Positions 13,132-42,474 of a DNA stretch of 64,000 nt are shown piece after piece. The notes under the pieces are model-generated. The model did no database searches. It had not been told where the DNA came from and saw nothing but the letters and a program-made list of their open reading frames with translations. Each line of letters begins with the position of its first letter. The first letter of the stretch is position 1. Source of the DNA: an uncultured Candidatus Poseidoniales archaeon (GTDB lineage Archaea > Thermoplasmatota > Poseidoniia > Poseidoniales > Poseidoniaceae); the NCBI GenBank assembly GCA_964526385.1, contig CAZGJD010000009.1:8358-72357 (forward strand), read 5' to 3'. The position numbers and the translations under genes are program-made.

Positions 13132-14166
13132 TCAAGAAATTCTCTCTTCTTGATGGTCAACATCAATTTCCAAATTGTCACCGATGACGCATCTGAATAT
13201 TTTTGATTTCACGACTGAATTTTCTCCAATTATTGATGATTCAGATGTTCCGTCTATTCTTGAATTTGACATAACTACCGAATCCACAGCGGCACCTGTT
13301 ACCGAAGCACCTGGAAGTATAATCGACCTCTCAATGTGGCCACTCACACTTGCAGAAGAACTGATGAAAGAACCATCTGGGAGAATTTCACCTTCAGGCA
13401 TTGGAAAAGGAAGGTTTTCAGAATTTTTGACAAGTGAAAGTTGTGCGTTCAATAATTCAAATGGATGTCCCACATCAAACCAAATGCCCTCTACCTTTTT
13501 CCCGTAAATTTTCCAACCACGATTTAATATTTCTGGAAATAATTCTTTTGAGAAATCAAATTTTGTATCTTTTGGTATTAGTTCCATAACTTCAGGCTCA
13601 ATGATGTATAATCCAGCATTTATTAGATTAGAAAATGCCTCTTCTGGTTTGGGTTTCTCTAAAAATTTGGAGATATATCCCTCAAATAAACCAGAATCTA
13701 GTTCCCCATCGTGTGTTGAACTTAAGCCTACTATTCCAAACTCAGACGGATTTTCAACCTCCCACAAAGCCATAGTAACCTTTGCGTTTGATTCCCTGTG
13801 TGATTGTATCAGGTCCGCAACATCAAATGAAGCAACTGAATCACCAGAACCTACAACGAAAGTTTCAGTTAATTCATCAGATAACAATCTGACACTTCCT
13901 GCAGTACCCATCGGGGTCAGTTCTTGATTCACTCTTCCATTTATTTTCCAGCTATGAACGTGATTTATGAGTTGGTCTCCCTTGTAGCCAGTGGTTACGA
14001 TAATCTCTGATATTCCCGAGCTGACCATTGAGTCTTTGACGTAGTCAATTACTGGCCTACCGAGAACTGATACCATTGGTTTTGGACGGTTTAGAGTCAA
14101 TGGCATCAGACGAGTACCTCGTCCGCCAGCCATTATTACTCCTTTCAGATTCTCACTTCCTTCCAC
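13132..14166 (-). CDS. Sugar-1-phosphate nucleotidyltransferase with a C-terminal left-handed beta-helix
   Basis: GVIMAGGRGTRLMPLTLNRPKPMVSVLGRPVIDY is the NTP-transferase signature. The C-terminal hexapeptide-like repeats match the GlmU/GMPP/RmlA-like family. Confidence 0.8.
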   Translation of the reverse strand: MEGSENLKGVIMAGGRGTRLMPLTLNRPKPMVSVLGRPVIDYVKDSMVSSGISEIIVTTGYKGDQLINHVHSWKINGRVNQELTPMGTAGSVRLLSDELTETFVVGSGDSVASFDVADLIQSHRESNAKVTMALWEVENPSEFGIVGLSSTHDGELDSGLFEGYISKFLEKPKPEEAFSNLINAGLYIIEPEVMELIPKDTKFDFSKELFPEILNRGWKIYGKKVEGIWFDVGHPFELLNAQLSLVKNSENLPFPMPEGEILPDGSFISSSASVSGHIERSIILPGASVTGAAVDSVVMSNSRIDGTSESSIIGENSVVKSKIFRCVIGDNLEIDVDHQEERIS

Positions 14167-15163
14167 GAGATGCAGTCATGTCGACTCTTCTCATGGATTT
14201 CTTCTTATCTGACCTGCCTTTCTTTGAACCTAAACCTTGTCTATCTCCAGACATGGTCCCTCCAAAAGAAAGTGAGCCTTGATTTAACAGCTGGTCGACC
14301 ATAGAGTCTGCAACTTTTGGGTCCTCAGCGCCGGTTTTCATCATTTTAGTCACCGATTCATTGTGGTCGACAATCCATGATTCTCTTTCTTCGCGAGCTA
14401 TTTTTAACTTATCACGAACCTCATTAACTTCGTTCATCAACTCAACGATCTTGGAGTGTACTTCATTCGCCTTTTCCTTACACGCAACAAATTCGTTGTG
14501 GAACCTGTCACCTTCACCTTTGAGGAAATTTCTGTGTTCAAAGAGTTCATCGAGTTCTTTCGACATTTCTTTCGCCCTTTCCAGACAGTCCACAAACTGC
14601 TTGTGAGCATCATCAGCCTCTGATTTTAGAGTTGCAATTGCTTCGTCTCGATTTGAAATATCAACTTTGATGATTTGAAGTTCTGCAACTAGTGGTTCCA
14701 ATTCTGCCATCTTTCGTCGCATGATTTTGATTTTATCCATTGTCTCTTTTTCTTTCTTTGGAGACATTCCGCCTTTTGTTTCAAAGATGCGTTCGAGAGA
14801 TGTAACTTCACTCGTTAACTTATTGAATTCAATTGACGCGGAATTTTTATCGTTTTGTTCTCCTCTTTTTGATTTGGAGACTCCGATTAGGTCTCGGATT
14901 TGGGCTTGAATCGCATCTCTTCTTTCCTTGTGCACCTTTTGTTCGGCTCTGACTGCCCTAACTTCTGCTACTGCAAGGTCGACTTTTTCTCTGTGTTCCT
15001 TGTATTGAGATTGGATTGCATTTCTTTGGTCTGCAAATCGATTTGCTTGGTCGTTGTGGTTATTTCTTGCTTCACGAAGTTTCTTGACCTTGGCCTCCAT
15101 CTGATGGAGATGATCTCGCAACTCAGTGTTGTCCTGAGGCTGCTGTTCTTCTGATTCGCTCAT
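14153..15163 (-). CDS. Archaeal coiled-coil protein, paralog A (COG1340-like, from memory) with a basic Gly/Ser/Lys/Arg tail
   Basis: 336 aa of almost uninterrupted heptad-like charged sequence (LREARNNHNDQANRFADQRNAIQSQYKEHREK...). It ends GSKKGRSDKKKSMRRVDMTASRGRK. Confidence 0.7.
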   Translation of the reverse strand: MSESEEQQPQDNTELRDHLHQMEAKVKKLREARNNHNDQANRFADQRNAIQSQYKEHREKVDLAVAEVRAVRAEQKVHKERRDAIQAQIRDLIGVSKSKRGEQNDKNSASIEFNKLTSEVTSLERIFETKGGMSPKKEKETMDKIKIMRRKMAELEPLVAELQIIKVDISNRDEAIATLKSEADDAHKQFVDCLERAKEMSKELDELFEHRNFLKGEGDRFHNEFVACKEKANEVHSKIVELMNEVNEVRDKLKIAREERESWIVDHNESVTKMMKTGAEDPKVADSMVDQLLNQGSLSFGGTMSGDRQGLGSKKGRSDKKKSMRRVDMTASRGRK

Positions 15164-17487: not shown

Positions 17488-19908
17488 TTAATCTGCACGG
17501 GCCTCAAATATTGTTTCACAAGCTGGACAACGTGCTTTTGCAGGCCTTTTCTCATATGGAACCTTTAGTTTCCGTGTACATTTTGGACAACCAAGGATGT
17601 CATTATCAGAGGAAGCCCATGGTTCTGATTCTTCTACTTCGGAAACTGTAGCATCCTCTTCTGTATCTTTTTCTATTTCTTCTAGTTTGGACTCTACATC
17701 AAATTTTGACTCACATTCGGGGCATCTCACAGACCCATTATAATCGCTAGGAACTCTTAATCTTCGGTCACAGGTGGGGCATGAAACCTCGATTTTTTCG
17801 GGTGATTTTGCTTTTGTTTCAGAAGTTTTTTGTTTAGATTTAATTGTTGATTTAGGTGAATTTTTTATTCTAATCGCAAAAATGGCGACCATACCGGCGG
17901 CTAATCCACCAAGTATTCCACCTATCGGTAATTCAAATCCAGATGATTCATCAGATGTCAATTCAGATTTTACCAAAATTTGGTCAGAAATTACTTGACC
18001 GTCTACATACCAAGAAAGAGTCACTACAACATTTTCTTGTTTAGGCCAATCGACAACCATTGAATAATCTTCAGAAGCAACTTGTTTGCCATTAACTGTT
18101 TTCATCCCTATTACAGAATTAGTGGAATCTGTTGCTATGATTTCGCTTTGTATAATTCCACCATCTCCATTATTACTCAAAGTAAAAAGAATCGTAACCT
18201 GTTCACCTGCTACGGGAACTCTAGGTTGAGTAATAGGATTAACAACGATAGAAGGGTTGGGGGAATAGTTTGGATATTCTATTTGATATTCTAAAGTGCT
18301 ACCTAATCCAATGGTCCAATCAACTGCTATAACTTTCACATATACCTGATCAGCGTTAATCTCCCCTAAATTCATCTCGCCATAGGTTACACCCGGAAGC
18401 AATACCCTTTCCTCAGAAATTAAGGTATTTCTATCTCCATCCAATATTTTACCATATTCAATAATAACGTCCCTTCCAATACCAGTTTCTAAATCGATTG
18501 CCCATTCGATATTTACACCATCTTCAGACCTCTTGATTTCACCTAAATTAATTGAAATATCTTGCGCTGATACGATAGGAATTATTACAGTTCCTGAAAG
18601 ATTTTCATCTACTACAGAGTCTACGCTTACTATTGACCAATTGAAAATATGGTCACCTTCATCTTCGATACTGAAAATGAAAGGAACTTCACCCGCACTC
18701 CCAGGTTGAAGCAAAATTGATTCGGACTCATGTAACTCGTCGCCGTTATCAAATCTAAGTGCTACACTCCCTTCAGCATCTCCTTCATTTCTAACTAAAA
18801 TCGAAACAACGATGTCATCATCCACATGCCAAGGACCGTTTATCAAGGATGGAGAATTATATCCTGCTCCGGTTATTATCGCTGATTCAAAGATTAAATT
18901 ATCACTCGAGATTGAGTCCCCAAGTGCTCTCGTGAGTTCGGGCTTACACTCAAGAACACCTGGTTTTGATAGCATGCTTATTGTATAATTAACAGAATCA
19001 TTAGAATTAATTTGCTCACCAAAACTACTCAAAAGTGAATTGTCGAAGTAGCAAGATATGTTCCCAGTGAAATTAGTATGGCCGATGTTCATGACATTGA
19101 GATTCCATGACATCTGACTTCCAGAACTTGGTTCAATATTTCTGGTTAAGTTCATTTGCAAAAACGGCAGGGGAGGGGGTGAAATTGTGATGATCGCAAA
19201 TCTCGTGTTGTCGGTTGTGTAATCATCAACATCTCCATGCAATTCAAAATCAAAAGCTAAATCCCCCTCTTGTACAGGTCCATATTGAAATTTAACTAGA
19301 TTGGTTTCGTCTCCTAAAACATTGATTGAAAATGTATTTTCATGCACACCCTCTACTGACATATTGATATCTCCAGACCATTCAATATCACCAGAGTTTA
19401 TCACTGGAATTTCGATTTCAACATAATCTCCGTCGTTTATTGTAAGATTTTCAGTCAAATTTCCATCTTCAAAAATTCCGTTAAAAATTGGCTCCCCAAT
19501 CGAAATGTTGAGTGGCCTCAAACGAGTAATTGATTCTTCAAAAACTGTCCATTGATTCGCATTTGGAGTTCCAACATCACCAGAAAGGCTAACAGTCAGA
19601 TTTGAGATTCCAAGGGGTGCTAAACCAAGTGTAGATTCGATGTAGTAATTTACCCCATCATCAACTAGCAAATTACCTGAATCTGAATCAATGAGATTTC
19701 CTTCCAAATCTGAAAGAGTTGCATTCCAAAACACTTGTGAGGATGATGCACCGCCTACACCAGTCAGTGTTATGTTCAATTCAATCGGACCTTCGCCAAC
19801 TAGCTCATCCCCAACAATCAAGACCTCAGAGATTACTCCTCCTGATGATTGAACCACTGGAACCAAAGCTAGTGTTAACAAACACATCAATGCGATGGCT
19901 CTCCGCAT
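17488..19908 (-). CDS. Large surface protein: signal peptide, Ig/CARDB-like repeats, one TM helix, cytoplasmic tail with two zinc ribbons
   Basis: The N-terminus MRRAIALMCLLTLALVPVVQS is signal-like. TM helix is LPIGGILGGLAAGMVAIFAI. The tail contains CPTCDRRLRVPSDYNGSVRCPEC and CPKCTRKLKVPYEKRPAKARCPAC. Confidence 0.7.
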   Translation of the reverse strand: MRRAIALMCLLTLALVPVVQSSGGVISEVLIVGDELVGEGPIELNITLTGVGGASSSQVFWNATLSDLEGNLIDSDSGNLLVDDGVNYYIESTLGLAPLGISNLTVSLSGDVGTPNANQWTVFEESITRLRPLNISIGEPIFNGIFEDGNLTENLTINDGDYVEIEIPVINSGDIEWSGDINMSVEGVHENTFSINVLGDETNLVKFQYGPVQEGDLAFDFELHGDVDDYTTDNTRFAIITISPPPLPFLQMNLTRNIEPSSGSQMSWNLNVMNIGHTNFTGNISCYFDNSLLSSFGEQINSNDSVNYTISMLSKPGVLECKPELTRALGDSISSDNLIFESAIITGAGYNSPSLINGPWHVDDDIVVSILVRNEGDAEGSVALRFDNGDELHESESILLQPGSAGEVPFIFSIEDEGDHIFNWSIVSVDSVVDENLSGTVIIPIVSAQDISINLGEIKRSEDGVNIEWAIDLETGIGRDVIIEYGKILDGDRNTLISEERVLLPGVTYGEMNLGEINADQVYVKVIAVDWTIGLGSTLEYQIEYPNYSPNPSIVVNPITQPRVPVAGEQVTILFTLSNNGDGGIIQSEIIATDSTNSVIGMKTVNGKQVASEDYSMVVDWPKQENVVVTLSWYVDGQVISDQILVKSELTSDESSGFELPIGGILGGLAAGMVAIFAIRIKNSPKSTIKSKQKTSETKAKSPEKIEVSCPTCDRRLRVPSDYNGSVRCPECESKFDVESKLEEIEKDTEEDATVSEVEESEPWASSDNDILGCPKCTRKLKVPYEKRPAKARCPACETIFEARAD

Positions 19909-20005: not shown

Positions 20006-20827
20006 ATGGATGTAGATGACCTCTTGTCAGTGTCGCCTAAACTATTGGCTCAAGCAATTCTACACCAAAGAGAACGCTTGATGGAACAGATTCCAAAGGA
20101 ATTGGAGGCAAGCACATCTGATCTCCAAAAATCCGAACCGTTGGCAAAGGCAGCCAGAATTGAAAGGGACAAAATTAATTCCAAAGTCAGTAAGTTGAAA
20201 TCTGAACGAGACACCTCCCAACAAAAGGCCAAAGTTTTATTTGAGAATTCTAATAAGATATACAACGAATTGTTAGATTCAGGTGGAATAAAAAATCCTA
20301 ACCCAAAATGGGCTAGAGACAAATTGGAAGCGAATCTAAAGGCTATCGAAGATAAGTTGCAGACAAGTGCTGGAAATCATAAGACAGAAGAGAAATACAT
20401 CAATGAAATGAAGAATCTTGTAAAAGAACACGAAGAGTGGGTCGAAGCAAATGCATCTTCTCAGCCAAAATTACTCGAAATGAGAGACGCAAGAAAAGAA
20501 GCCAAAAAATTACTCGACATTGCGCAAAAAGCACATGAAGCCATGGTTGAATTAGCTGGTGAAAATGATGAGAAGCATGAACAATTCATGACGTGGGAAA
20601 AAGTTCGTAGGGACAGCCTCTCCAAAACGAGGAAACTAAATGACATCATGAAGTTCTCAGAAAAATCATTGTCATATTGGAATCAAAAAATTGAAGATGA
20701 TAAATTTGAACCCTTACTACAAAATAGCGTAAATGTGAAATTAGGAAAGATGTCTTCCTTTGCAATTTCAAGGGCCAAAAAATTGGCTGAAGAAAAATCG
20801 TCTGTACGTGGTGGTGAGGAAGAATGA
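20006..20827 (+). CDS. Archaeal coiled-coil protein, paralog B (COG1340-like)
   Basis: 273 aa of charged heptad-rich sequence (ARIERDKINSKVSKLKSERDTSQQKAKVL...). Its stop overlaps the start of the next gene by 4 nt. Confidence 0.7.
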   Translation: MDVDDLLSVSPKLLAQAILHQRERLMEQIPKELEASTSDLQKSEPLAKAARIERDKINSKVSKLKSERDTSQQKAKVLFENSNKIYNELLDSGGIKNPNPKWARDKLEANLKAIEDKLQTSAGNHKTEEKYINEMKNLVKEHEEWVEANASSQPKLLEMRDARKEAKKLLDIAQKAHEAMVELAGENDEKHEQFMTWEKVRRDSLSKTRKLNDIMKFSEKSLSYWNQKIEDDKFEPLLQNSVNVKLGKMSSFAISRAKKLAEEKSSVRGGEEE

Positions 20828-22893
20828 GCGATTTCTGTGAAATCACTGGTATGTCTATAAACGATGCGAATAAGTTTGAGTTTATTCACTCAAAAATGAT
20901 CGAAGAGTTTAGTCCCAAAGAAATTGATGAGAAATATCTCGAAAAACTTGAAAATGAAATCTCAACTTCAATAAAGCGAATTCTTCCACATAAAAGTGAT
21001 TCAAAACAGAGAGAGAGTTTAACAAATCACCTATCGAGAACGTTAGGTAAAAAATTCAAATCTTCAGATGTCAAATCATTCGGTTCTTCCGTGACTGGCC
21101 TTAATATCAAAGGCGGAGACCTAGACCTTTGTTTTGTAATACCTGGTGCAAACCAGAAAAGTACAATTCAAAACATGGCTAAGGTCTTGAGGGGGCAAGG
21201 AATGGAAAACGTTCAACCTATTACTAATGCCATAGTCCCTATACTAAAATTCAAAGACCCAAGAAGTGGCATACATACTGATATTTCCGTTAACAATACT
21301 TTAGCACTGCACAATACGGAATTAATCAAAAGATATTCTAAAATTGACCGGAAGGTAAGCGATTTCATTCGATTGGTAAAATATTGGTCATTCCACAGAA
21401 ATATTTCTAATTCGTTTGAAGGCACTTTTTCATCATATGCTTGGACGATTCTCGCATTGAATTATCTTATTTCAGAGGGAGTAGTCCCTAATTTACAAGA
21501 TACCGAAGAAAAAATGTTGATTGAAATAAATGGAAATGAATTTGATATATCGATGGATAATCCTGAAACTATCAAACTATCAAGAGATATACCATTGTCA
21601 AAAATGATTTGTGGTTTCTTCGAGTTCTACTCGAACTGGGATTGGTCTAGTGATGTGGTTTCTATCAGAAACGGAGGGAAATTGGGTAGGGAAGAAGTCT
21701 CGTGGGATAATGAAGATCCGACTTCAATAGACTTGCTTAACCTTGGGAAATCTGATGCAAAAACTGGCAAGCACCACTTACCAATTCAAGACCCATTTGA
21801 CATTAATCACGACCTTTCAAAAGTATTAACTGCACAAGGCGAATTACAAATTCTAAATGAAATTCTCAGAGCAAGAGTGGAAATTGGAAACGGATTGAAT
21901 TGGTCAAAACTATGCGAAACTGTAGAACCTGAAAGGCTAGCAGACTTAGAACCTGAAGATTTGTTCCATGACCTGAGAAATTTGCCAATCAAGGATGTTG
22001 AAAATAAGAGAACTAAAATTCAAGGAGAAATTAATGCTCTTGAAACTAAAATCAAAGCATTTGAAGAGGAGAAATCTGTTTCTATTAGATTAGCAAACGC
22101 AATGAAGGGAATAATCGAGGAGACATCAGATATCCGTTCAGAACACAAGAGCATACACATAGGTCTTAAAGAAAGAAGTAAAGAAATTAGGGACCTAAAA
22201 AAGGAGAGAGACTTAATTAATTCAAACATTGTCATCCCACTGAAATACATTGAAGAGCAGTTAGCCAAAGTATACAAGCGATTAACAAATGAATTGAATG
22301 TAAGATATATTCCTAGTTTGGACAAAGAAATTAGTGATTTCTCATGGTTTTTTGAGTTACAAGAAATGCACAAAAAGGCGAAAGATGCTGAAAACTTACA
22401 CAACAAATATGTCGAATTATCAAAGCAACAGCATGAAGATATAAAGAAGCTAGAATTGTTCGAAACAAAGCATGATGAAGTTACAACAAAACTGCTCGCA
22501 GAAGAACCATTATTGAAAGATTTGAAGTTGGGTAGAAACGGTGCTAAGAGTTATGACAAGAGAGTATATAACATCAATAGAGCAATCCAAAATGGTCGCT
22601 CAGAATTTCAAAAACTAAGAAGAGAAATTGGTAGGTTGGACGCCTGGTTGAGAATTTCTAAGGGAGGAGGAAAATCAAACAAAGGTAGAAGTAGAAAAGA
22701 TTCGAATAGAGGGGAAAAGGTAACTTCAGGCCCCGTCACGCTTGGAGACCTATCCGACTTACTTGCTCAGGCTGGTCAATCTTCATCAACAAAGAAAACC
22801 AAGAAAATAAGTTCAAAGAAAGCCGGTATGAAAAAATTGGGTAACTTTTCGGCTCACAGAGGCACAAGAGGATCGTATAACAGGAAAGAATGA
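20824..22893 (+). CDS. Cid1/TUTase/non-canonical poly(A) polymerase-like nucleotidyltransferase (Pol-beta NTase + PAP-associated domain) fused to a C-terminal coiled-coil module and basic tail
   Basis: FGSSVTGLNIKGGDLDLCF (hG[GS]...DxD), PILKFKDPRSGIHTDISVNN (third Asp), LIKRYSKIDRKVSDFIRLVKYWSFHRNI, GTFSSYAWTILALNYL...VPNLQ, GFFEFYSNWDWSSDVVSIRNG, and IQDPFDINHDLSKV. Residues ~385-640 are coiled coil like paralogs A-C. The Lys/Arg/Gly/Ser-rich tail covers residues ~640-689. Confidence 0.8.
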   Translation: MSDFCEITGMSINDANKFEFIHSKMIEEFSPKEIDEKYLEKLENEISTSIKRILPHKSDSKQRESLTNHLSRTLGKKFKSSDVKSFGSSVTGLNIKGGDLDLCFVIPGANQKSTIQNMAKVLRGQGMENVQPITNAIVPILKFKDPRSGIHTDISVNNTLALHNTELIKRYSKIDRKVSDFIRLVKYWSFHRNISNSFEGTFSSYAWTILALNYLISEGVVPNLQDTEEKMLIEINGNEFDISMDNPETIKLSRDIPLSKMICGFFEFYSNWDWSSDVVSIRNGGKLGREEVSWDNEDPTSIDLLNLGKSDAKTGKHHLPIQDPFDINHDLSKVLTAQGELQILNEILRARVEIGNGLNWSKLCETVEPERLADLEPEDLFHDLRNLPIKDVENKRTKIQGEINALETKIKAFEEEKSVSIRLANAMKGIIEETSDIRSEHKSIHIGLKERSKEIRDLKKERDLINSNIVIPLKYIEEQLAKVYKRLTNELNVRYIPSLDKEISDFSWFFELQEMHKKAKDAENLHNKYVELSKQQHEDIKKLELFETKHDEVTTKLLAEEPLLKDLKLGRNGAKSYDKRVYNINRAIQNGRSEFQKLRREIGRLDAWLRISKGGGKSNKGRSRKDSNRGEKVTSGPVTLGDLSDLLAQAGQSSSTKKTKKISSKKAGMKKLGNFSAHRGTRGSYNRKE

Positions 22894-22896
22894 GTC

Positions 22897-23370
22897 ATGC
22901 TTTCGAACGCAAAAAAAGCTTATTGGCGAAACGGTATTTCCCCAAGAAAAATGGACTATCCTTCCATCGAGAGAATAAGACAATTATTCTTTGACCAAAC
23001 TGGCGAAGAATATGCACGAATTTCAATCCAGACTCTTCCAATTCCAAACTGGGGTGGAAATTTGATACTATATGATGAAAATGATTTCATCAGGGGATTG
23101 CTATGGGCTAATAGGCTCCCACCAAATAAAGTAAGAATAGTAGCTTTTGTGATTGATGAAGATTATGTTTCAAATGGCTATGGAAGTCAAGCATGGAATT
23201 TACTCTTAAATTCCGCAAGGAAAGAGGGAATAAATGAAATTCAACTCGAGGTTAAAGCTTCCAATACCAAAGCAATCAAGTTCTATGAAAACAGGGGATT
23301 GAAAATAATACAAAAATTGGAAGGATACTACAAATCTGGACTTGGTTATGCAATGAGAGGGGAGATTTAA
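22897..23370 (+). CDS. GNAT-family N-acetyltransferase
   Basis: VDEDYVSNGYGSQAWNLLL...QLEVKASNTKAIKFYENRGLKI covers acetyl-CoA binding motifs A/B. It starts 3 nt after the preceding stop. Confidence 0.75.
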   Translation: MLSNAKKAYWRNGISPRKMDYPSIERIRQLFFDQTGEEYARISIQTLPIPNWGGNLILYDENDFIRGLLWANRLPPNKVRIVAFVIDEDYVSNGYGSQAWNLLLNSARKEGINEIQLEVKASNTKAIKFYENRGLKIIQKLEGYYKSGLGYAMRGEI

Positions 23371-23407: not shown

Positions 23408-23713
23408 ATGCTGAAGGATGTCATCAACGATTTAGTGGATGGCGAATGCATAACATCTGCAGCTTTGCTTGATGATTCTGGTTTCACAATTGAAAGAACA
23501 TCGATAGAACTCAAACCAAACGAATTGGTTGGTTTTTTGGAAATTGTTGAATCATATGAAATTTCAACTATAGTTACAACAGAATGCTTCGTTTCATGTA
23601 AGAGATTTCAATCAGGTCAAACATTAATTTCAATAACACCTAAGAACGGTAACATCGGAAAGGCTAGATTGCGAATCGAACAATGTTGTTCTTTGATTGA
23701 AAATTATCTTTGA
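23408..23713 (+). CDS. Small Roadblock/LC7-like protein (tentative)
   Basis: 101 aa. LKDVINDLVDGECITSAALLDDSGFTIERTS resembles the Roadblock/MglB N-terminal pattern (l..l...gv.ga.l.d.dG). Weak. Confidence 0.4.
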   Translation: MLKDVINDLVDGECITSAALLDDSGFTIERTSIELKPNELVGFLEIVESYEISTIVTTECFVSCKRFQSGQTLISITPKNGNIGKARLRIEQCCSLIENYL

Positions 23714-23800: not shown

Positions 23801-24676
23801 ATGTCAGGGCTAAAAGAAACTCTTGATGAGAAGCGAAAGTTGGTAGATAAAAAGGCAACTCAATACCGAACGACTCGTGACGAATGGAATAGTCGAACAA
23901 AAGAGTTTACAGTCCAGAGAAATGAATTGAACGCAGAAGTTAGAGAACTTATTCAAAATGTAAAACAACAAAGAGAAATCAGAGAACAAATGAATGAACT
24001 TGTTCGCGAAAAGAAAACTGCAAGAAAGGAAGCAAGTAACCTAGTAAAGCAGGCAAAATCAGAATTGGACTCTCAAAAGGGCACCAAGGATGATTCCGGT
24101 CAAGGAAGAAGAAAGGGAGAAAGAAGAGTAACGGTTCACTCCTTGAGAAGAGAATTTGAAAAACTCGATCGAGAGATGGAGATGGGGAAACATCTTGGCC
24201 AAAACGAAAAGAAGGTAATGAAAAGAATGAAGGAAATTCGTGCTAAAATAAAAGACATGGAATCATCTGAAGAAAATAATTCCGACCTAAAGTCTGCAAG
24301 AGGCACTCTACGCGAAGCAATGGTCGCTCAAGAAGAAGCACACGTCGAGGTGCAAAAAGCCGCACAAGCTGCACAAGAAGCCCATGATTTAATGCTACAG
24401 TGGAATAAGGAAGTTGACCGACAGAGAGAACTTGCCGAAGGTGCTCACAGAGAGTTGAGAAAATCTAAGAAAGAAGCTGATAAAGCTCATAGATTTTACA
24501 TAGTGTCACTGCGATGCTTACACTCAATTCAAGACATCATAAGGTCAATGCGAGGTACAGAGTCTGGCGAATCTCAAAGAGGAGCGAGGGTAGAAGTACA
24601 AGACTTGATGAGTAAATTGATGAGCGGGGATACACTATCAACTGAGGAGTTAATGGAATTACAGCGCTTTGATTAA
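23801..24676 (+). CDS. Archaeal coiled-coil protein, paralog C (COG1340-like)
   Basis: 291 aa: RDEWNSRTKEFTVQRNELNAEVRELIQNVKQQREIREQMNELVREKK..., with the same two-block coiled-coil layout as A and B. Confidence 0.7.
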   Translation: MSGLKETLDEKRKLVDKKATQYRTTRDEWNSRTKEFTVQRNELNAEVRELIQNVKQQREIREQMNELVREKKTARKEASNLVKQAKSELDSQKGTKDDSGQGRRKGERRVTVHSLRREFEKLDREMEMGKHLGQNEKKVMKRMKEIRAKIKDMESSEENNSDLKSARGTLREAMVAQEEAHVEVQKAAQAAQEAHDLMLQWNKEVDRQRELAEGAHRELRKSKKEADKAHRFYIVSLRCLHSIQDIIRSMRGTESGESQRGARVEVQDLMSKLMSGDTLSTEELMELQRFD

Positions 24677-28723: not shown

Positions 28724-31700
28724 TCAGATTCTTCTTACCCACTGTCGGGAATTTGGATCTCTCATGTACCATACACCACTCCCTGAAGGGTGTTCTAACC
28801 ATTCATTTCCATCAGACCTCATCGAACCGACATCATACATGGTTGGCTCCGCTGGCACAGAGGTAGCGAGTGGGTTCCCAGGCAATTGATTCAATTGTGG
28901 ACTTTGCCCATATTCAGGAACAACTTGTTGCTGGTAAGATGGTTGGACAGTTTGCTGATATAGACCCGGATTGCTTTGAAGAGCCATTTCGGATGCCATG
29001 ATTTCCTCTGTGCTCCAATCTTTATCATCATTCCTTGAACTCATTCTTGAGAAAATCAAGCCTGCTAAAACAATCAATAAGAGAGCACCTCCGCCTGCTC
29101 CCACATAGATTACTACTGAGTTTGCGGAATCTTCAATCACTTCTTCACACCCATTTTCTTCTGCCACACCTGCGATTTCAGGACATTGATCTCCATCTTT
29201 TCCAAAAGGATTGTCTCCAAACCCATCCTTATCTGTATCGTTCCATTGTGACGCCTCGTTAGGGAAATCATCTATGATGTCTGCCCAGCCATCATTATCA
29301 CTATCTATACAACCCAATATACCTCCTTGGAATGAATAACCTTGCTCATTTGGACAATAATCTGGATTATTACCAACTGGATTGTCTCCATATTGGTCAT
29401 TGTCTGAATTCTGCCACTGTGTTGGGTCAATTGGATTCCAATCTGTACCAGTTTCTGGGTCACCCCAGCCATCTCCATCAAAATCTGGACAACCTAGTAC
29501 ATCTGCGGTTGAATTTCCTCTAAACATTGGACAATCGTCTTTGCCATCCGGAACACCATCCAAGTCTGTATCTAGATATTCTTCAGAGTCGAATGGGAAT
29601 GCATCCATGAAATTCGCCCAACCATCTCCATCTGAATCTGGACATCCAAGTATGTCTTCTTTCCAAGATTCTCCTGCCTGCGATGGACAAGCATCTTGCC
29701 CACTTGCAAATTGCACGTATTCACCCGGCCAAGTTTGGTCTCTATCAAACCATGACATGTTGCCATAGTTATCTCCATATCCATCCTCATCATAATCCGA
29801 CCACTGTGTAGCTTCAAGAGGGAACGCATCTGCTCCATCCTCTGTTCCCCATCCACTGTCTGGTGATGAGTATCCGTCCGCATCTGGATCAGGACAACCA
29901 AACCTATCGATTACAGAAGTACCTGCAGTACCTGTGCAAGCATCTGGACTATTTCCTTCCTGATTGTCCCCAAATCCATCCCCATCGGTATCGCTCCATT
30001 GTGTCTTATCCATTGGTAGGTCATCATCTTGGTCAGCCCAACCATCACCATCTAAATCAGGGCAACCAATCGATCCCCCCATTGAAGAATTTCCGTTTGA
30101 GTTTGGACATGAGTCTTCAGTGTCTGCCCAACCATCGTCATCAGAATCAATACATCCCTTAAGTCCAAGTTCTGAAGTTCCAGCAACCTTGTTACAATCA
30201 TCAGATGAATCTGAGAAGTTATCTCCATCATCGTCTGTATCTTCATCGGCGTCTCTGCATCCATCTTGGTCAATATCGTTGGACTCGTCAGAAGTCCACC
30301 AGTTTCTGGGCGGGGTGTAAGAACTCAAACATCCGTCATCTTCATCGTCGATACCATCGTTGTCATCATCGTTGTCTTCGGTGTCATCTTTACAGCCATC
30401 ATTATCGAAATCTGTTGTGGGATCACTAGTCCAGTTCCATGCACCACCCCTCGGGCAATCATCTCCTGCATTGTCAGTAATGCCATCATTATCATCATCA
30501 TAATCACAGGCATCTCCTTCACCATCCAAATCACTATCTGTTTGCAAAGGGTTGTTTGTGTTAGGACAATTGTCTGTGAGGTCATTAACCCCATCATTAT
30601 CCACATCAGCATTATTTGCAGGGTCAACAATCCAAACGAAAATGTCTAACCCCCAAGTTGAGGAAATTGATTTTGTTCCCTTCGTGATGGAACCTTGGAA
30701 AGAACCGACTGCAGAATAGTTTCCTGTGGAATTTACTGCTAAATCACCAAATAAATCTAAGTTATTTCCACCAACGGTTTCAACCCAGTCCCATGTACCT
30801 GCTGGGGTCAATTGTGCCATAAATCCGTCAACACTTCCCGTTGAAGTGATATAATTTCCACCGAAAGATGTAGTTCCAGAATGAGTTCCTCCAACAACCA
30901 ATTTACCGTTATCGCTAGCTACAATGGAATCAGCCCATTCAGAGTCACTACTGCTTCCAACAGATATTATCCAGTCAAAGTTAGTAGACTGTGGTATGTA
31001 TTTCAACACAAAGAAATCTACATCTTGGGTTGAAGAAGTAGAGACTGTTTTCTGCCCACCCAGATTTATTGTCCCAATAAATGCTCCAGTAACGTAAATA
31101 TCACCGGAGGTGTCCATAACCAAATCATTTGCAATGTTTGCTTCACTGGCTCCACTCGGAACCCCTGACACCGTTGTAACAGATGCGCCGTTAGAAAGTA
31201 CATTCCATCCCACAAGAATCGAGTCAGTGTTGGAAACAGCCTGGTGTGAATTACCTCCACCTCCGTTAAAAGTACCACCAGCTAATGCTAACTGCCAAAC
31301 TTTTCCTGATTGATCGATTATTACATTGCTTGCGGAATCAGCTCCAATTCCACCTGTGGACTCGGCCCAATTGATTGACCCAGAGAGAGCATCCATACTT
31401 ACTAGATTTACATCTCTATCACTGCTTACAATGTTAACGCTTCCAAAATTCGTCTCACCGTCATTACTTCCTGAGACGATGATGTTGCCTGATTGTGGGT
31501 CTACAGCGATTCCATCAACTTGACTTGAACCATTATTCACCGATGAGTAACCGGTTGCCCATTGCCAATTACCTGCATCGTCAATTTTAGCAACAAACCC
31601 ATCCAAGTAGCTGTTTGGGTTTTGAATAATGTTACCGCCAAATGAAACTGTGCCAACAAATGCCCCACCGACGTAATATGAACCACCCATATCTTTCGTC

Positions 31701-32077
31701 ATTGCCTGTATGAATATCAGTCCACTTGAGGCATCTGGAATATCTGCCCATTGCCACTGGCCGTCATCACCGACTTTAGCGATATACATGTCGCCGTCAT
31801 AATTATTGTTATATGGAGAATTTGCTTGTACACTAATTGAACCAAATTGCATACTGTTTCTCGTATCTCCTGCGATTATCCATCCATCAAAACTGGCTTC
31901 CATAAAAGATGCATTGACGTGGCCTGGATTTGCACCTGCATGTACTAGTGCTTCTGGTTCAGAATCTGCTTTCTTTATTATTGTTGATTCCTCAAGAAGA
32001 ATCTGGTTATTTAGAGGGATTACACTCAAAATTAATGTCAGTACTATGAAAGTGGCAAGTACAACACGTCTGCTCAT
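28724..32077 (-). CDS. Giant surface protein: signal anchor, beta-propeller-like repeats, ~500 aa of thrombospondin-type-3-like Ca-binding repeats, TM helix, Pro/Gln/Tyr-rich cytoplasmic tail
   Basis: Start set at [19 protein letters not shown] (ATG 32077). The N-terminal half repeats the pattern G..FvG...fGg. Reiterated units include [32 protein letters not shown] helix is [22 protein letters not shown]. Confidence 0.75.
29147..30628 (-). repeat. Coding tandem array of Asp-rich TSP3-like calcium-binding repeats inside the giant surface protein
   Basis: Residues ~512-1005 carry many copies of D-x-D-x-D-G-x-x-D / C-P-x-x-x-G units. The low complexity creates many spurious ORFs in other frames and on the + strand. 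Confidence 0.8.
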
Positions 32078-32115
32078 ATATTTATGTCGTATTAGGTGGA
32101 TGATGAAGTCTTTGC

Positions 32116-33000
32116 TCAAATGTTTCTGTACAAAGAATTCGTTACTCCCTCCAAAATCCACTTTTTCCCGTTCCCTTGAATGGCAAAATGACCCGGAATT
32201 AGTACATCATAACTCTCAACAATAGCAGTTTCATCATCAAATTTCCACCATTGCAACAGTTGTCCCACATCATCGCCGTGAGATTTTCTTACAGACAATA
32301 ATTTGGAAAATTTGGGATTGTCATCTATCTCTAGATACTCCTTATTAAGCAAAGGAGCCCTTTGCATTAATTCTATAGATTCTACTACATGAAGACCGTT
32401 ACAGTTAAGCACCAACTTTTCAACAGTTTCTTTGTCAGGACCCACTAAACTTCCTTTGACTTTGTGAATGATAGCGGGTATTATTATCGGCGTTGCGTCT
32501 GAAATCTTCAAACCGTTTTCTTCCAAAACAGAAAAGTCGTTGAGGGGTTTTATCGGAAAAGGACCCTTTCCAACAAAGACATCTTCATCTGCATCATCAG
32601 ATGTTTCATCATTTTCATCTACGATTGATATTTTGCTAGACAGAATGGCTTCGCCAATGAAAGATGCCAATACTTCCCGAGTCCAAAGGATGACATTTCG
32701 ATCGGTCCTTGTAAACATCTGAGTATCATCAAAGTCCACGACTCTCTCGCTAATCAATAGGTGGGAACCTCTTGGAGCATCCATTAACCAGGATTCAAAT
32801 CCGGCAAGGTCCAGATGGGCAATTCCAGAACCAGTGACCCATATTTCCATTCCCTCAGTAAAACCAAATTGCACATGGTCAGGATGTACATCGAACATTC
32901 GTCCTAACCAGCTTATCATTCCATCTTTAACCAAGGGCTTAGATGACTGGTCGATATTAACATCAAGGCGTTGCAGAGCCTTTTTCAAATCGAATGCCAT
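32116..33000 (-). CDS. Hypothetical protein occupying the position after rpl30e
   Basis: Start is uncertain: ATG 33000 (MAFDLKK...) or TTG 33081, which overlaps rpl30e. No KH (GxxG), S1 or other motif recognised. Confidence 0.5.
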
Positions 33001-33370: not shown

Positions 33371-38105
<4,735 letters not shown>

Positions 38106-38109
<4 letters not shown>

Positions 38110-41100: not shown

Positions 41101-41717
41101 ACAGTTACACGGTTGGGTGCAAGATCTTCCATTGAAATCAGTACTCTTTCGGTTCCATTGATGATGAAATAACCTCCAGGGTCGAGAGGGTCTTCTCCTT
41201 TCTTCCTCAATAATTTGTCAAGGACCTTTCTGTCTTCCTCAGATGTAGTTGGGTGAAGTTGTCTGTCGCCTGCGATGTGGCTTGGATGAAGATTACATCT
41301 CTTGCTTCTAACCATAATCGGCATGCTTCCAACCTGGACACCCTTCTCAGCGAGCCCTGGTTGGTCATCTCTGTAAATGGTGAAATCCATTTGCACAGGA
41401 GACATGTATGTTAGTTTCCTTAACCTACACTCCATAGGCAGTGAAGCATGGTCACTTCCGTCTGCCTCTCTTATGTTTGGTTCACCGAGTTGAATGTTTT
41501 TTAGTCTGATTACTATGTTCTGGTCTAGAACGTCAAGCTTGATTAAACCGCCTTCGTCATCGACTACATCTTCGTCAGTTCCGACTCTAATGCTTCTGAC
41601 GATTTTTTCCATCCTCGAAAGAGTGTTGTCACTAGAAGGTATACAATCGTCGTAGGATGCAAGTTGGTGGTTAACTAAACTTCTTTGTTTGAAAAATGCC
41701 TCAATTATTTCTTTCAT
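38106..41717 (-). CDS. rpoB: DNA-directed RNA polymerase subunit B (unsplit)
   Basis: 1203 aa: ...GDKFASRHGQKGVIG..., ...LRFGEMERDCLIAHGA..., and a C-terminal Zn region. A single ORF covers both the B'' and B' equivalents. Confidence 0.95.
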
Positions 41718-42352: not shown

Positions 42353-42400
42353 TCTGACACCCCGTAAGCCCGCAGTACACTGGTCCTGAAGTTAGTCAGG

Positions 42401-42474
42401 CGGGCCTGACGGGGTTCGAACCCGCGACCGACGGGTTAAAAGCCCGTCGCTCTACCTGACTAAGCTACAGGCCC
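42401..42474 (-). tRNA. tRNA-Lys (anticodon UUU)
   Basis: Reverse complement is GGGCCTG-TA-GCTT-AGTCAGGTA-GAGC-G-ACGGG-CTTTTAA-CCCGT-CGGTC-GCGGG-TTCGAAC-CCCGT-CAGGCCC-G. This folds as a full cloverleaf, 74 nt, with T-loop TTCGAAC and anticodon loop CU-UUU-AA. CCA is not fully encoded (CCT follows). Confidence 0.9.

What the first reader, a model, noticed from the sequence alone, without database searches (positions are those of the whole stretch)
20824..22893. Eukaryote-type Cid1/TUTase-like nucleotidyltransferase fused to an archaeal coiled-coil module
Residues ~30-360 carry essentially all hallmark blocks of the Cid1/Trf4/GLD-2 non-canonical poly(A)/poly(U) polymerase family. These are FGSSVTGLNIKGGDLDLCF (codons from ~21082), the third carboxylate in GIHTDISVNN, RLVKYWSFHRNI, GTFSSYAWTILALNYL, and the PAP-associated block GFFEFYSNWDWSSDVVSIRNG...IQDPFDINHD. 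This family is characteristic of eukaryotes. As far as I know, archaea are described with CCA-adding enzymes and minimal NTases, not with a PAP-associated-domain tailing enzyme. Here the enzyme is fused to ~250 aa of coiled coil and a Lys/Arg/Gly/Ser tail that duplicate the architecture of three neighbouring stand-alone genes. Together this suggests a previously undescribed RNA 3'-tailing or RNA-surveillance module whose catalytic subunit is targeted or scaffolded by the coiled-coil proteins.
Basis: partly seen in the sequence, partly recalled or inferred. Interest (0 to 1): 0.85.

Follow-up and report, generated by a model that had tools for sequence, protein, structure and literature searches.

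The report
Eukaryote-type RNA-tailing enzyme in marine archaea
A gene conserved in every sampled lineage of the abundant ocean archaea called Marine Group II encodes an apparently active enzyme of the Cid1/TUT4-7/URT1 family, which adds U or A tails to RNA and is otherwise known from eukaryotes, here fused to a long coiled-coil arm; this suggests these archaea tail RNA in a eukaryote-like way that I found no report of.

Summary
ORF 20824-22893 (+, 689 aa) has an N-terminal half (about residues 41-365) that is a Cid1/TUT4-7/URT1-type terminal nucleotidyltransferase. Pfam PF22600 scores 5e-32 and PAP_assoc 3e-12. PDB phmmer gives URT1 at 3.5e-38. The AF2 model superposes on URT1 at TM 0.90 and 2.5 Å.

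The catalytic triad and NTP-contact residues are invariant or nearly so in 107 orthologs. The UTP-selector cluster (Cid1 D330/E333/H336) is D323/D326/H329 here. One clade switches coordinately to an Arg-type cluster.

Residues 389-612 form an antiparallel coiled-coil hairpin, followed by a disordered Lys/Gly/Ser/Arg tail. This half is as conserved as the enzyme half.

The gene is a single-copy, syntenic core gene in all sampled Poseidoniales lineages. It forms one clade (95/100 NJ bootstraps). All nearest named relatives are eukaryotic, so one ancient eukaryote-to-archaeon transfer is the simplest history.

The three neighbouring coiled-coil genes are DUF7121/COG1340 paralogs. Homology of the fused module to them is not demonstrated: the profile score is no better than shuffled controls, and only a weak shared tail motif remains.

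Activity, substrate and nucleotide choice are inferred, not shown. I found no published description.

The parts
20824..22893 (+). Full ORF, 689 aa: a TENT (Cid1-type nucleotidyltransferase), a coiled-coil hairpin and a basic tail
   Evidence: Full-length orthologs at 33-98% identity and about 100% coverage in Poseidoniales MAGs and one SAG.
20824..20943 (+). N-terminal extension (residues 1-40) specific to the archaeal clade. It carries conserved Cys5, Thr8 and the consensus motif RWP.LH.
   Evidence: Alignment A1 gives M1, C5 and T8 at >=90%. pLDDT is 76-88. This region lies outside the Pfam domain hits and mostly outside the stretches aligned to eukaryotic TUTases. Function unknown.
20944..21918 (+). 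Catalytic module (residues about 41-365): an NTase palm inserted in a PAP/OAS1 substrate-binding (PAP_assoc) domain
   Evidence: PF22600 covers residues 42-173 and PF03828 covers 258-329. Foldseek hits are URT1, TUT7 and Cid1. 67 of 325 columns are >=90% conserved.
21079..21126 (+). hG[GS] motif (F86-G87-S88) and the first two catalytic carboxylates (D99, D101)
   Evidence: F86, G87, S88 and D101 are present in 107/107 orthologs and D99 in 106/107. They align to the URT1 and TUT7 DxD motif.
21280..21282 (+). Third catalytic carboxylate, D153
   Evidence: Present in 107/107 orthologs. It aligns to the TUT7 catalytic Asp. In 7xs4 (URT1) the aligned position reads Ala, which I take to be an engineered active-site mutation.
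21790..21822 (+). Nucleotide-recognition motif D323-P-F-D326-I-N-H329-D-L-S-K333, equivalent to Cid1 D330/E333/H336/R340
   Evidence: Cid1 residue numbering and roles come from PMC5689010. Cluster types among 107 orthologs: DDHR 60, DNHR 12, DDRT 22.
21955..21978 (+). Conserved linker motif DLFHDLR (residues 378-385) between the enzyme and the coiled coil
   Evidence: D379, F381, D383 and R385 are invariant in alignment A1. Function unknown.
21988..22659 (+). Antiparallel coiled-coil hairpin (helices 389-468, 473-488, 499-560, 571-612). The conserved tip carries P472, I476, L487 and F506-x-x-F509-x-E-L-Q-x-M515.
   Evidence: AF2 models. Foldseek finds only generic coiled-coil hairpins with E>=1.2e-3 and TM<=0.34. 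Median identity is 47%, at least as conserved as the enzyme half.
22660..22890 (+). Disordered Lys/Gly/Ser/Arg tail. It contains a short helix with LGDLSDLL and the terminal motif KKAGMKKLGNFSAHRG.
   Evidence: pLDDT is below 50 except for the 640-649 helix. L646, L647, R679 and G680 are invariant. It resembles the tail of the 336-aa DUF7121 protein weakly.
20006..20827 (+). Upstream 273-aa coiled-coil gene, a distant DUF7121 paralog. Its stop overlaps the NTase start (ATGA).
   Evidence: Junction sequence. A 4-nt coordinate overlap is seen in L001-L005 and L007-L012. Its ortholog is tagged PF23435 in L012. hhalign to cc336 gives P=66% against 0.2% for the reversed control.
22897..23370 (+). 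RimI-like GNAT acetyltransferase, starting 3 nt after the NTase stop
   Evidence: PF00583 at 2.6e-13. TIGR01575 rimI at 2.2e-13, below its cutoff. Junction sequence. Syntenic in all loci that extend past the NTase gene.
23408..23713 (+). Conserved 101-aa protein with no family assignment
   Evidence: No Pfam, NCBIfam or PADLOC hit. Orthologs are present in most loci.
23801..24676 (+). Stand-alone DUF7121 coiled-coil protein, 291 aa
   Evidence: PF23435 at 5.1e-15. 67-89% identical across the order.
14153..15163 (-). Stand-alone DUF7121/COG1340 coiled-coil protein, 336 aa, with a basic tail ending in ASRGRK
   Evidence: All 120 listed homologs carry PF23435. Source names are 'uncharacterized coiled-coil DUF342 family protein' and 'phosphoserine phosphatase'. 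hhalign to the 291-aa paralog gives P=93%.

Best explanation
The gene encodes a catalytically competent terminal ribonucleotidyltransferase (TENT) of the Cid1/TUT4-7/URT1 type. It is a vertically inherited core gene of Poseidoniales (Marine Group II) archaea. It was most likely acquired once, anciently, from a eukaryote, and then fused to an archaeal-clade-specific coiled-coil hairpin and basic tail. Proposed mechanism (inferred): the palm domain (D99/D101/D153 with two metal ions) adds untemplated nucleotides to RNA 3' ends. In the window protein and about 75% of orthologs, the D-x-x-D-x-x-H recognition cluster predicts UTP preference and therefore short U-tails. In one clade, the coordinated switch H329R/R333T/T165S predicts a different nucleotide preference, possibly C-leaning as in CutA. 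The 224-residue coiled-coil hairpin and its conserved tip would mediate oligomerisation or docking. The most probable partner is the product of the translationally coupled upstream 273-aa DUF7121-like gene. The Lys/Arg-rich disordered tail would supply non-specific RNA affinity or a docking peptide. The likely biological role is marking RNAs for decay or surveillance, or maturing them, in a way that parallels eukaryotic uridylation.
For: Shown here. Family membership by sequence and by fold. The three carboxylates are present in 106-107 of 107 orthologs. The following are all 107/107: F86-G87-S88, N164 (Cid1 N171), K186 (Cid1 K193), S204/Y205 (Cid1 S211/Y212), and D323 (Cid1 D330); residue roles come from PMC5689010. 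The coordinated three-site change in the nucleotide pocket of one clade (24 Arg / 24 Thr-or-Ser / 24 Ser) indicates selection acting on nucleotide choice, and hence on catalysis. The coiled-coil half is conserved as strongly as the enzyme half (47% against 41% median identity) and has invariant non-heptad motifs. Full-length architecture and position are conserved in every sampled lineage, including the most divergent. The ATGA start/stop overlap with the upstream gene, preceded by a purine-rich stretch, is read in the window, and the 4-nt coordinate overlap recurs in other loci. The archaeal clade is monophyletic at 95/100, and every named nearest relative is eukaryotic. The window is core archaeal chromosome, with RNAP B/A'/A'' and FttA. 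Inferred, not shown: the RNA substrate, U preference, the partner, and the biological role.
Against: No biochemical or transcriptomic evidence exists for activity, substrate or tails. The E333 equivalent is Asp (or Asn) rather than Glu, and the window protein has Lys, not Arg, at the R340 equivalent, so specificity cannot simply be read off. One lineage (P0131, locus L012) has lost the GS, DxD and third-Asp motifs but keeps the C-terminal half. So the protein has some function that does not need catalysis. No U-tail reader or U-dependent nuclease was looked for or found. Synteny is uninformative for function because the whole region is collinear across the order. The sister group and the direction of transfer are unresolved by the NJ tree.
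Confidence: 0.55

Rival explanations
1. It tails RNA, but as an A-adding or mixed-tail polymerase. It would work like Trf4/TRAMP or GLD-2, for example feeding the archaeal exosome, rather than as a uridylyltransferase.
For: GLD-2 and Trf4 are also significant PDB matches (1.4e-24 and 9.5e-12). Position 326 is Asp or Asn rather than the Glu of the DxxExxH cluster. Position 333 is Arg in 80/107 orthologs, and an Arg at the equivalent position supports ATP use in Cid1-H336N and in Trf4. From general knowledge, A-rich tails made by the exosome are the only tails described in archaea.
Against: His at the Cid1-H336 position is present in the window protein and in 80/107 orthologs. H336 is the major determinant of UTP selectivity, and Trf4-type enzymes carry Asn there. 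The best sequence and structure matches are the U-adding enzymes URT1, TUT7, TUT4 and Cid1, not Trf4.
Confidence: 0.2
2. It is mainly a structural or scaffolding coiled-coil protein. The NTase domain would serve as a binding module (for a nucleotide or an RNA end), and catalysis would be dispensable.
For: The syntenic ortholog P0131 (L012) lacks all catalytic motifs and gets no Pfam hit, yet it retains the conserved C-terminal half. The C-terminal half is at least as conserved as the enzyme half.
Against: 106 of 107 full-length orthologs keep all three carboxylates, and every NTP-contact residue is invariant. The nucleotide pocket shows coordinated substitutions, not random ones. The degenerate form was seen on a single contig.
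Confidence: 0.07
3. It acts on tRNA 3' ends, in CCA repair, CCA addition or tRNA-end surveillance, rather than on mRNA or non-coding RNA in general.
For: The tRNA-Lys gene in the window is followed by CCT, not CCA, so post-transcriptional CCA addition is required in this organism. I could not check whether a class I CCA enzyme is present elsewhere in the genome.
Against: No CCA-enzyme domain was hit, and no CCA-adding enzyme appears among the 38 PDB sequence matches. The fold matches Cid1-type enzymes, which lack the tRNA-binding body and tail domains. From general knowledge, class I CCA enzymes are essentially universal in archaea.
Confidence: 0.07
4. It makes a nucleotide second messenger or belongs to an antiviral conflict system, like cGAS/OAS/CD-NTase.
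For: It shares the Pol-beta plus PAP/OAS1 fold superfamily. PADLOC gives weak hits to oligonucleotide cyclases (2e-4 and 4e-3).
Against: Those hits are marginal. The similarity to TUTases is 30 or more orders of magnitude stronger. The gene is a fixed core gene among housekeeping neighbours (RimI-like GNAT, PurP, MntR, sugar-1-P NTase), not in a variable island. No effector gene is adjacent. No relatives were found in viral, phage or plasmid collections.
Confidence: 0.04
5. It is an artefact: eukaryotic DNA mis-assembled or mis-binned into archaeal MAGs.
For: The family is otherwise eukaryotic.
Against: The same gene lies in the same place between archaeal genes on at least 14 independent contigs. 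These come from different studies and include a single-cell genome (AG-404-K16) and a 1.53-Mb contig. It has no introns, its start overlaps the upstream archaeal gene, and its GC content (0.37) matches its flanks.
Confidence: 0.01

Closest known systems
Cytoplasmic terminal uridylyltransferases: Arabidopsis URT1, human TUT4/TUT7 catalytic modules, S. pombe Cid1
   Same: It has the same two-domain catalytic module, an NTase palm inserted in a PAP/OAS1 substrate-binding domain. The catalytic triad and NTP-contact residues are the same. The selector His sits at the Cid1-H336 position. Identity is 25-29%, TM reaches 0.90, and E is about 1e-31 to 1e-38.
   Different: The host is an archaeon. It has no zinc knuckles, no second inactive NTase module and no N-terminal IDR of the eukaryotic kind. 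Instead it has a 40-aa clade-specific N-terminus, a 224-aa coiled-coil hairpin and a basic tail. The E333 equivalent is Asp. Activity is untested.
Fungal CutA (a C/U-adding TENT)
   Same: It belongs to the same family (E=6.5e-33, TM about 0.82). The Arg-type orthologs (24 of 107) carry Arg where CutA has R557, which is the H336 position.
   Different: The CutA cluster is E-x-x-N-x-x-R, whereas here it is D-x-x-D-x-x-R. The window protein itself is the His type.
Trf4/Trf5 (TRAMP) and GLD-2 non-canonical poly(A) polymerases
   Same: They belong to the same Pfam families and the same fold superfamily. They offer a conceptual parallel: a catalytic subunit that relies on partner proteins or appended modules to engage RNA.
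   Different: They are more distant (GLD-2 1.4e-24, Trf4 9.5e-12). They carry Asn rather than His at the selector position.
DUF7121 / COG1340 archaeal coiled-coil proteins (the three neighbouring genes)
   Same: The overall look is the same: about 250 aa of long helices and, in the 336-aa member, a basic tail with the collinear motifs RE..R..(A/S)W, D.LL..G, KK..M(K/R)(K/R) and A.RG.
   Different: The fused half gets no PF23435 hit. The profile-profile score is not above shuffled controls. The family itself has no known function (PMC1322226).
Archaeal class I CCA-adding enzymes and minimal nucleotidyltransferases (the Pol-beta NTases usually described in archaea)
   Same: They share the Pol-beta superfamily palm with the hG[GS] motif and three carboxylates.
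   Different: They are not among the sequence or structure matches. There is no tRNA-binding domain here, and a PAP_assoc domain is present.

Membership tests
Cid1-type TENT (non-canonical PAP/TUTase; Pfam PF22600 + PF03828) | NTase palm with the hG[GS], [DE]h[DE]h and h[DE]h motifs | tested here: met
   The motifs are F86-G87-S88, D99-L-D101 and T-D153-I. PF22600 scores 111 bits against a cutoff of 27. They are invariant or nearly so in 107 orthologs.
Cid1-type TENT (non-canonical PAP/TUTase; Pfam PF22600 + PF03828) | PAP/OAS1 substrate-binding (PAP-associated) domain flanking the palm | tested here: met
   PF03828 scores 47.2 bits against a cutoff of 22.6, covering residues 258-329. The model aligns over about 340 columns with Cid1, URT1 and TUT7.
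Cid1-type TENT (non-canonical PAP/TUTase; Pfam PF22600 + PF03828) | Three-dimensional fold superposable on solved family members | tested here: met
   Foldseek gives 7xs4 URT1 at TM 0.90 (normalised to the target) and rmsd 2.5 Å, Cid1 at 0.85 and TUT7 at 0.88. The model pLDDT is 80-94 over the domain. The comparison uses a predicted structure, not an experimental one.
Cid1-type TENT (non-canonical PAP/TUTase; Pfam PF22600 + PF03828) | NTP-contact residues (Cid1 S90, N171/T172, K193, S211/Y212) | tested here: met
   The equivalents are S88, N164/T165, K186 and S204/Y205. All are 107/107 except T165, which is T in 83 and S in 24. Residue roles come from PMC5689010. The K197 equivalent is not conserved at the same column, but R192 is invariant nearby.
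Cid1-type TENT (non-canonical PAP/TUTase; Pfam PF22600 + PF03828) | Template-independent nucleotide addition to RNA 3' ends | not testable with these tools
   This needs a recombinant enzyme assay.
Uridylyltransferase (PUP/TUTase) subclass | D-x-x-E-x-x-H nucleotide-recognition cluster (Cid1 D330/E333/H336) | tested here: inconclusive
   The window protein has D323-x-x-D326-x-x-H329. The selector His is present (80/107), but the middle acidic residue is Asp or Asn, not Glu. 24 of 107 orthologs have Arg instead of His.
DUF7121 / COG1340 (for the C-terminal half) | Match to PF23435 at or above the gathering score | tested here: not met
   There is no PF23435 hit for residues 372-689 even at E<=5. 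The three neighbours or their orthologs do hit it.
DUF7121 / COG1340 (for the C-terminal half) | Profile-profile homology to family members above controls | tested here: inconclusive
   With small profiles hhalign gives P=55% and E=1e-4 end-to-end. With a 117-sequence profile it gives P=11% and score 30.3, and 2 of 20 block-shuffled controls reach >=30.3. A tail-only HMM scores 8-9 bits above shuffles, but the absolute score is only about 10 bits.
Class I CCA-adding enzyme | CCA-enzyme-specific domains, or best matches to CCA enzymes | tested here: not met
   No such Pfam or NCBIfam hit was found. No CCA-adding enzyme is among the 38 PDB sequence matches or the top 50 Foldseek matches.
CD-NTase / OAS / cGAS defence cyclases | Significant match to a cyclase model, plus an adjacent effector in a variable locus | tested here: not met
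   PADLOC gives only 18.8 and 14.3 bits. The locus is fixed, sits in the core genome, and has housekeeping neighbours.

The most novel reading that the evidence does not exclude
Poseidoniales, among the most abundant archaea in surface oceans, run a eukaryote-like RNA 3'-uridylation pathway. A TUTase captured from a eukaryote over evolutionary time would have been wired into archaeal RNA metabolism through a coiled-coil arm and a DUF7121-family partner. This would be U-tail-based RNA marking in a prokaryote, which I found no report of. A still bolder reading is not excluded by the unresolved tree: this archaeal clade is a relic of the lineage from which the eukaryotic Cid1-type TENTs arose.
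Probability: 0.35. Interest if true: 0.85.

Novelty: new variant of a known kind. Interest (0 to 1): 0.66.

Why it matters
As far as I know, RNA tailing by Cid1-family enzymes (uridylation, non-canonical adenylation) is treated as a eukaryotic invention. Archaea are described as tailing RNA only through the exosome, and some lineages as not tailing at all. Here, an apparently active TUTase-type enzyme is fixed in every sampled lineage of Poseidoniales, a globally abundant archaeal order. It shows signs of selection on its nucleotide pocket and has its own appended targeting module. That would add a new layer of post-transcriptional control in archaea. It would also give a clean case of an ancient eukaryote-to-archaeon transfer of an RNA-metabolism gene. 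It would link one member of the functionally unknown but highly conserved archaeal COG1340/DUF7121 coiled-coil family to a first candidate partner and pathway. The claim is directly testable, both with recombinant protein and with 3'-end analysis of existing marine metatranscriptomes.

Tried and rejected
1. Pairwise BLAST of the C-terminal half against each of the three coiled-coil neighbours found nothing significant; the best was E=0.015 over 55 aa.

2. A small-profile hhalign suggested homology to the 336-aa DUF7121 protein (P=55%). With a deeper profile plus reversed and block-shuffled controls, the signal fell to control level, so I do not claim homology.

3. Foldseek of the C-terminal half alone returned only generic coiled-coil hairpins such as SMC arms and SH3BP5. 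It gives no functional lead.

4. PADLOC gave no defence-system assignment.

5. The pattern scan of IMG/VR viral contigs and tblastn against INPHARED phages and PLSDB plasmids found no relatives, so no transfer vehicle was identified.

6. The apparent stand-alone C-halves (P0072-type hits of 381 aa) look like fragments. P0072, the one I examined, starts 63 nt from its contig end.

7. The NJ tree could not resolve the sister group. The best alternatives had 19% support or less. No ML tool was available.

8. Six literature searches found no report of this family in archaea and nothing on DUF7121. The library is partial, so absence is not proof.

I therefore could not survey other archaeal phyla with a profile.

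10. Rfam and tRNA scans of the window found only one tRNA.

Full report
**1. The observation**

The ORF listing shows one uninterrupted ORF at 20824..22893 on the + strand, encoding 689 aa. F86 of FGSS... is at nt 21079.

Pfam places the MTPAP-like central palm domain (PF22600) at residues 42-173, with E=5.1e-32 and 111 bits against a cutoff of 27. PAP_assoc (PF03828) covers residues 258-329, with E=2.8e-12 and 47 bits against a cutoff of 22.6. NTP_transf_2 (PF01909) scores 4.8e-5.

A phmmer search of all PDB sequences returns 38 matches. All are terminal nucleotidyltransferases except one canonical PAP-gamma entry at E=4e-4. The order is URT1 (3.5e-38), TUT7 and TUT4 (about 1e-36 to 1e-37), CutA (6.5e-33), Cid1 (about 1e-30 to 1e-31), GLD-2 (1e-24), TUT1, MTPAP, RET1 and Trf4 (9.5e-12). 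No CCA-adding enzyme, OAS or MNT appears.

An AlphaFold2 model built on 39 orthologs has mean pLDDT 80.6, with 80-94 over the enzyme half. Foldseek superposes it on URT1 (TM 0.90 normalised to the target, 2.5 Å), TUT7 (0.88) and Cid1 (0.85).

**2. Is the enzyme likely to be active, and on what?**

I aligned 107 full-length orthologs. These positions are invariant: F86-G87-S88, D101, D153, N164, K186, R192, S203-S204-Y205 and D323-P324. D99 is present in 106 of 107.

Using the Cid1 residue roles in PMC5689010, they correspond as follows:
- D99, D101 and D153 are the catalytic triad (Cid1 D101/D103/D160 by my own recollection of the numbering).
- N164 and T165 are the ribose/base contacts N171 and T172.
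- K186 is the phosphate contact K193.
- S204 and Y205 are S211 and Y212.

That paper describes the nucleotide-recognition cluster of U-adding enzymes as D330-x-x-E333-x-x-H336, with H336 the main determinant of UTP selectivity. The window protein reads D323-P-F-D326-I-N-H329.

Across orthologs, the four positions 323/326/329/333 read DDHR (60), DNHR (12), DDRT (22), plus minor variants. The same number of sequences carry Arg at 329 (24), Thr or Ser at 333 (24) and Ser at 165 (24). I did not test the T165S sequences for overlap with the Arg-type set. CutA, which prefers CTP, has Arg at the H336 position.

A coordinated change in the nucleotide pocket within one clade is what selection on nucleotide choice would produce. 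It is not what decay would produce. I therefore infer an active enzyme. I expect it to be U-preferring in the window lineage, but with only moderate confidence, because the middle acidic residue is Asp rather than Glu and position 333 is Lys.

RNA as the acceptor is inferred from family membership only.

**3. The C-terminal half**

The full-length model and a separate model of residues 372-689 agree. The helices are 389-468, 473-488, 499-560 and 571-612. A disordered tail covers 613-689 and contains one short helix at 640-649. The tail is rich in K, G, S and R.

This half is not filler. Its median identity to the window protein across orthologs is 47%, against 41% for the enzyme half. It has invariant non-heptad motifs:
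- DLFHDLR at the junction.
- P472, I476 and L487.
- F506-x-x-F509-x-E-L-Q-x-M515 at the hairpin tip.
- R600-E-x-G-R...W608.
- L646-L647 and R679-G680.

Foldseek of this half alone finds only generic antiparallel coiled coils (SMC arm fragments, SH3BP5), with E>=1.2e-3 and TM<=0.34.

**4. Relationship to the neighbouring coiled-coil genes**

The 291-aa neighbour hits DUF7121 (PF23435) at 5e-15. All 120 listed homologs of the 336-aa neighbour carry PF23435. Sources name them 'uncharacterized coiled-coil DUF342 family protein' or 'phosphoserine phosphatase'; I believe the latter is a mis-annotation. In divergent orthologous loci the 273-aa neighbour's ortholog is also tagged PF23435.

hhalign links the 336-aa protein to the 291-aa protein (P=93%) and to the 273-aa protein (P=66%). 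Reversed-profile controls give 0.2%. So the three stand-alone genes are paralogs of one family. I take that family to be COG1340, from the source name. [quoted passage not shown]

The fused half is a different matter:
- Pairwise BLAST is non-significant.
- There is no PF23435 hit even at E<=5.
- A first hhalign run with small profiles gave an end-to-end collinear alignment to the 336-aa family (P=55%, E=1e-4).
- With a 117-sequence profile the score fell to 30.3 (P=11%), and 2 of 20 block-shuffled controls reached that value.
- A tail-only HMM scores the 336-aa family 8-9 bits above composition-matched shuffles, but the absolute score is only about 10 bits.

My conclusion is that the architecture is similar, there may be a shared terminal motif (D.LL..G ... 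KK..M(K/R)(K/R) ... A.RG), and homology is not demonstrated.

**5. Organism, distribution and history**

The window carries split archaeal RNA polymerase genes (B, A', A'') and an FttA/aCPSF1 gene.

Homologs of the full-length protein, at 33-98% identity and about 100% coverage, come from metagenomes and MAGs. The labels are Euryarchaeota/Methanobacteriota archaeon, Candidatus Poseidoniales and Candidatus Poseidoniaceae. One is a single-cell genome. They are annotated 'hypothetical protein', 'nucleotidyltransferase domain-containing protein' or 'DNA polymerase sigma'.

In all nine genome loci and in five further contigs chosen for maximal divergence, the gene sits in the same place wherever the contig extends far enough. 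The order is: 273-aa coiled-coil gene, this gene, RimI-like GNAT, a roughly 100-aa ORF, the 291-aa DUF7121 gene, then PurP. The whole roughly 20 kb is collinear, so adjacency alone says little about function.

The upstream gene's stop overlaps this gene's start (ATGA, preceded by GGTGAGGAAGA). The GNAT start follows the stop by 3 nt. That fits co-translation of at least these three genes.

An exhaustive HMMER search of 1.84 billion cluster representatives with residues 1-380 gives about 15 representatives of the archaeal full-length type (E<=2e-46). Below a clear gap lie thousands of multidomain proteins that match only the core (6,598 at E<=1e-3).

Every nearest one that carries a name is eukaryotic:
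- A bivalve (Tegillarca).
- Basidiobolus.
- A mite GLD2-like protein.
- Pavlovales.
- Pigoraptor.
- Closterium.
- Pharyngomonas.
- Oyster and ascidian TUT4-like proteins.
- Piromyces.

One unnamed representative lies on an alga-like contig next to PsaO.

In an NJ tree of 141 catalytic domains the archaeal sequences form one clade in 95 of 100 bootstraps. The sister group is unresolved. No relatives turned up in viral, phage or plasmid collections.

The simplest history is one ancient transfer from a eukaryote into the Poseidoniales stem, followed by fusion and vertical descent. Divergence within the archaeal clade (distances up to 1.2-1.6) is nearly as deep as the distance to eukaryotes (1.35-1.5). 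That argues the event is old. The reverse direction, or wider archaeal occurrence, is not excluded, because I could not run a profile survey of other archaeal phyla.

**6. Mechanism proposed**

Shown here:
- Family membership, fold and intact catalytic and NTP-binding residues.
- The conserved fusion.
- Overlapping genes.
- Order-wide vertical inheritance.

Inferred:
- The enzyme adds short untemplated tails to RNA 3' ends, U in the His-type lineages.
- The coiled-coil hairpin oligomerises or docks, most probably with the co-translated 273-aa DUF7121-like protein.
- The basic tail adds RNA affinity or a docking peptide.
- The tails mark RNAs for decay, surveillance or maturation.

I give this composite 0.55. 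The rivals are an A- or mixed-tail polymerase (0.2), a mainly non-catalytic scaffold (0.07), tRNA-end metabolism (0.07), a signalling or defence NTase (0.04) and an artefact (0.01).

The scaffold rival has one real observation behind it. The syntenic ortholog P0131 has lost the GS, DxD and third-Asp motifs and gets no Pfam hit, yet it keeps the C-terminal half.

The tRNA rival rests on the tRNA-Lys gene in the window being followed by CCT rather than CCA. I could not check for a canonical CCA enzyme elsewhere in the genome.

**7. Comparison with what is known, and novelty**

As an enzyme, this is a member of the Cid1-type TENT family. Every defining sequence and structural feature I could test is met. 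Activity is untestable here.

It differs from all described members in three ways: its host domain, the absence of the eukaryotic accessory domains, and its own N-terminal extension, coiled-coil arm and basic tail.

Six full-text searches found no paper reporting this family in Poseidoniales or any archaeon, and none mentioning DUF7121. The reviews I opened discuss archaea only in connection with CCA-adding enzymes and minimal NTases. Automated pipelines have already attached the Pfam domains and the 'DNA polymerase sigma' label, so the hit is visible in databases.

I rate it a new variant of a known kind, with interest 0.66. A specialist in RNA tailing or archaeal RNA metabolism would be surprised, and it is readily testable. 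Function is still entirely inferred, and single-gene transfers from eukaryotes to prokaryotes are not unprecedented.

Noticed in passing
L012:8001-10082 (protein P0131, JGI contig Ga0063241_1000188): This syntenic ortholog has lost its catalytic motifs. It reads LIDSS for FGSS, it has no DxD, and the third Asp is Asn. It gets no Pfam hit, but its coiled-coil half and tail remain conserved. It looks like a natural pseudoenzyme lineage.
   Followed up: partly
Orthologs P0098-P0120 (e.g. P0100, P0103, P0116), equivalent to window residues 165, 329, 333 and about 416-450: One Poseidoniales clade has a coordinated H329R / R333T(S) switch in the nucleotide pocket, and the same number of sequences (24) carry T165S. 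The members I read (P0098, P0100, P0103, P0116) also have a roughly 30-aa deletion in the first long helix. The clade probably has a different nucleotide specificity and a shorter arm.
   Followed up: partly
P0010 (860 aa; NCBI/ENA): This ortholog contains an internal direct duplication of about 170 aa of the C-terminal half. The stretch DTVDESRLEHLEPDDLFHDLR...HQRFIENIN occurs twice. It is either a real tandem duplication or an assembly artefact.
   Followed up: no
L002:10001-11611 and L002:15061-17102 (1.53-Mb contig JAYQHX010000002.1): In this long-read assembly the ortholog is cut to 536 aa, and the downstream SSF transporter is split into two ORFs. These are probably frameshift errors in the assembly rather than biology.
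   Followed up: no
window 20824-20943 (residues 1-40): The N-terminal extension is specific to the archaeal clade. Cys5 and Thr8 are nearly invariant and there is an RWP.LH consensus. It is modelled with good confidence against the enzyme domain, and it lies outside the Pfam domain hits and mostly outside the stretches aligned to eukaryotic TUTases.
   Followed up: no
window 42399-42474 (-): The tRNA-Lys(UUU) gene is followed by CCT rather than CCA, so this organism must add CCA post-transcriptionally.
   Followed up: partly
window 1094-2998 (+) and 33371-41717 (-): An FttA/aCPSF1 transcription-termination nuclease (KH + beta-CASP + RMMBL domains) and the RNA polymerase B, A' and A'' genes lie in the same window. 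This confirms core archaeal chromosome. No functional link to the NTase has been shown.
   Followed up: no
window 17488-19908 (-) and 28724-32161 (-): There are two very large, fast-evolving putative surface proteins. The 806-aa protein has orthologs tagged CARDB with faint zinc-ribbon hits, and it reads as having a C-terminal membrane segment and CxxC pairs. The 1145-aa protein is Asp-rich, and its orthologs are tagged with thrombospondin type-3 repeats.
   Followed up: no
window 23408-23713 (+): This 101-aa ORF is conserved in most Poseidoniales loci between the GNAT and DUF7121 genes. It has no hit in Pfam, NCBIfam or PADLOC.
   Followed up: partly
window 14153-15163 (-) overlapping 13132-14166 (-): The 336-aa DUF7121 gene overlaps the downstream sugar-1-phosphate nucleotidyltransferase gene by 14 nt. 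It is much more conserved across the order (70-89% identity in most loci, 56% in the most divergent) than the NTase fusion (46-66%, 36% in the most divergent).
   Followed up: no
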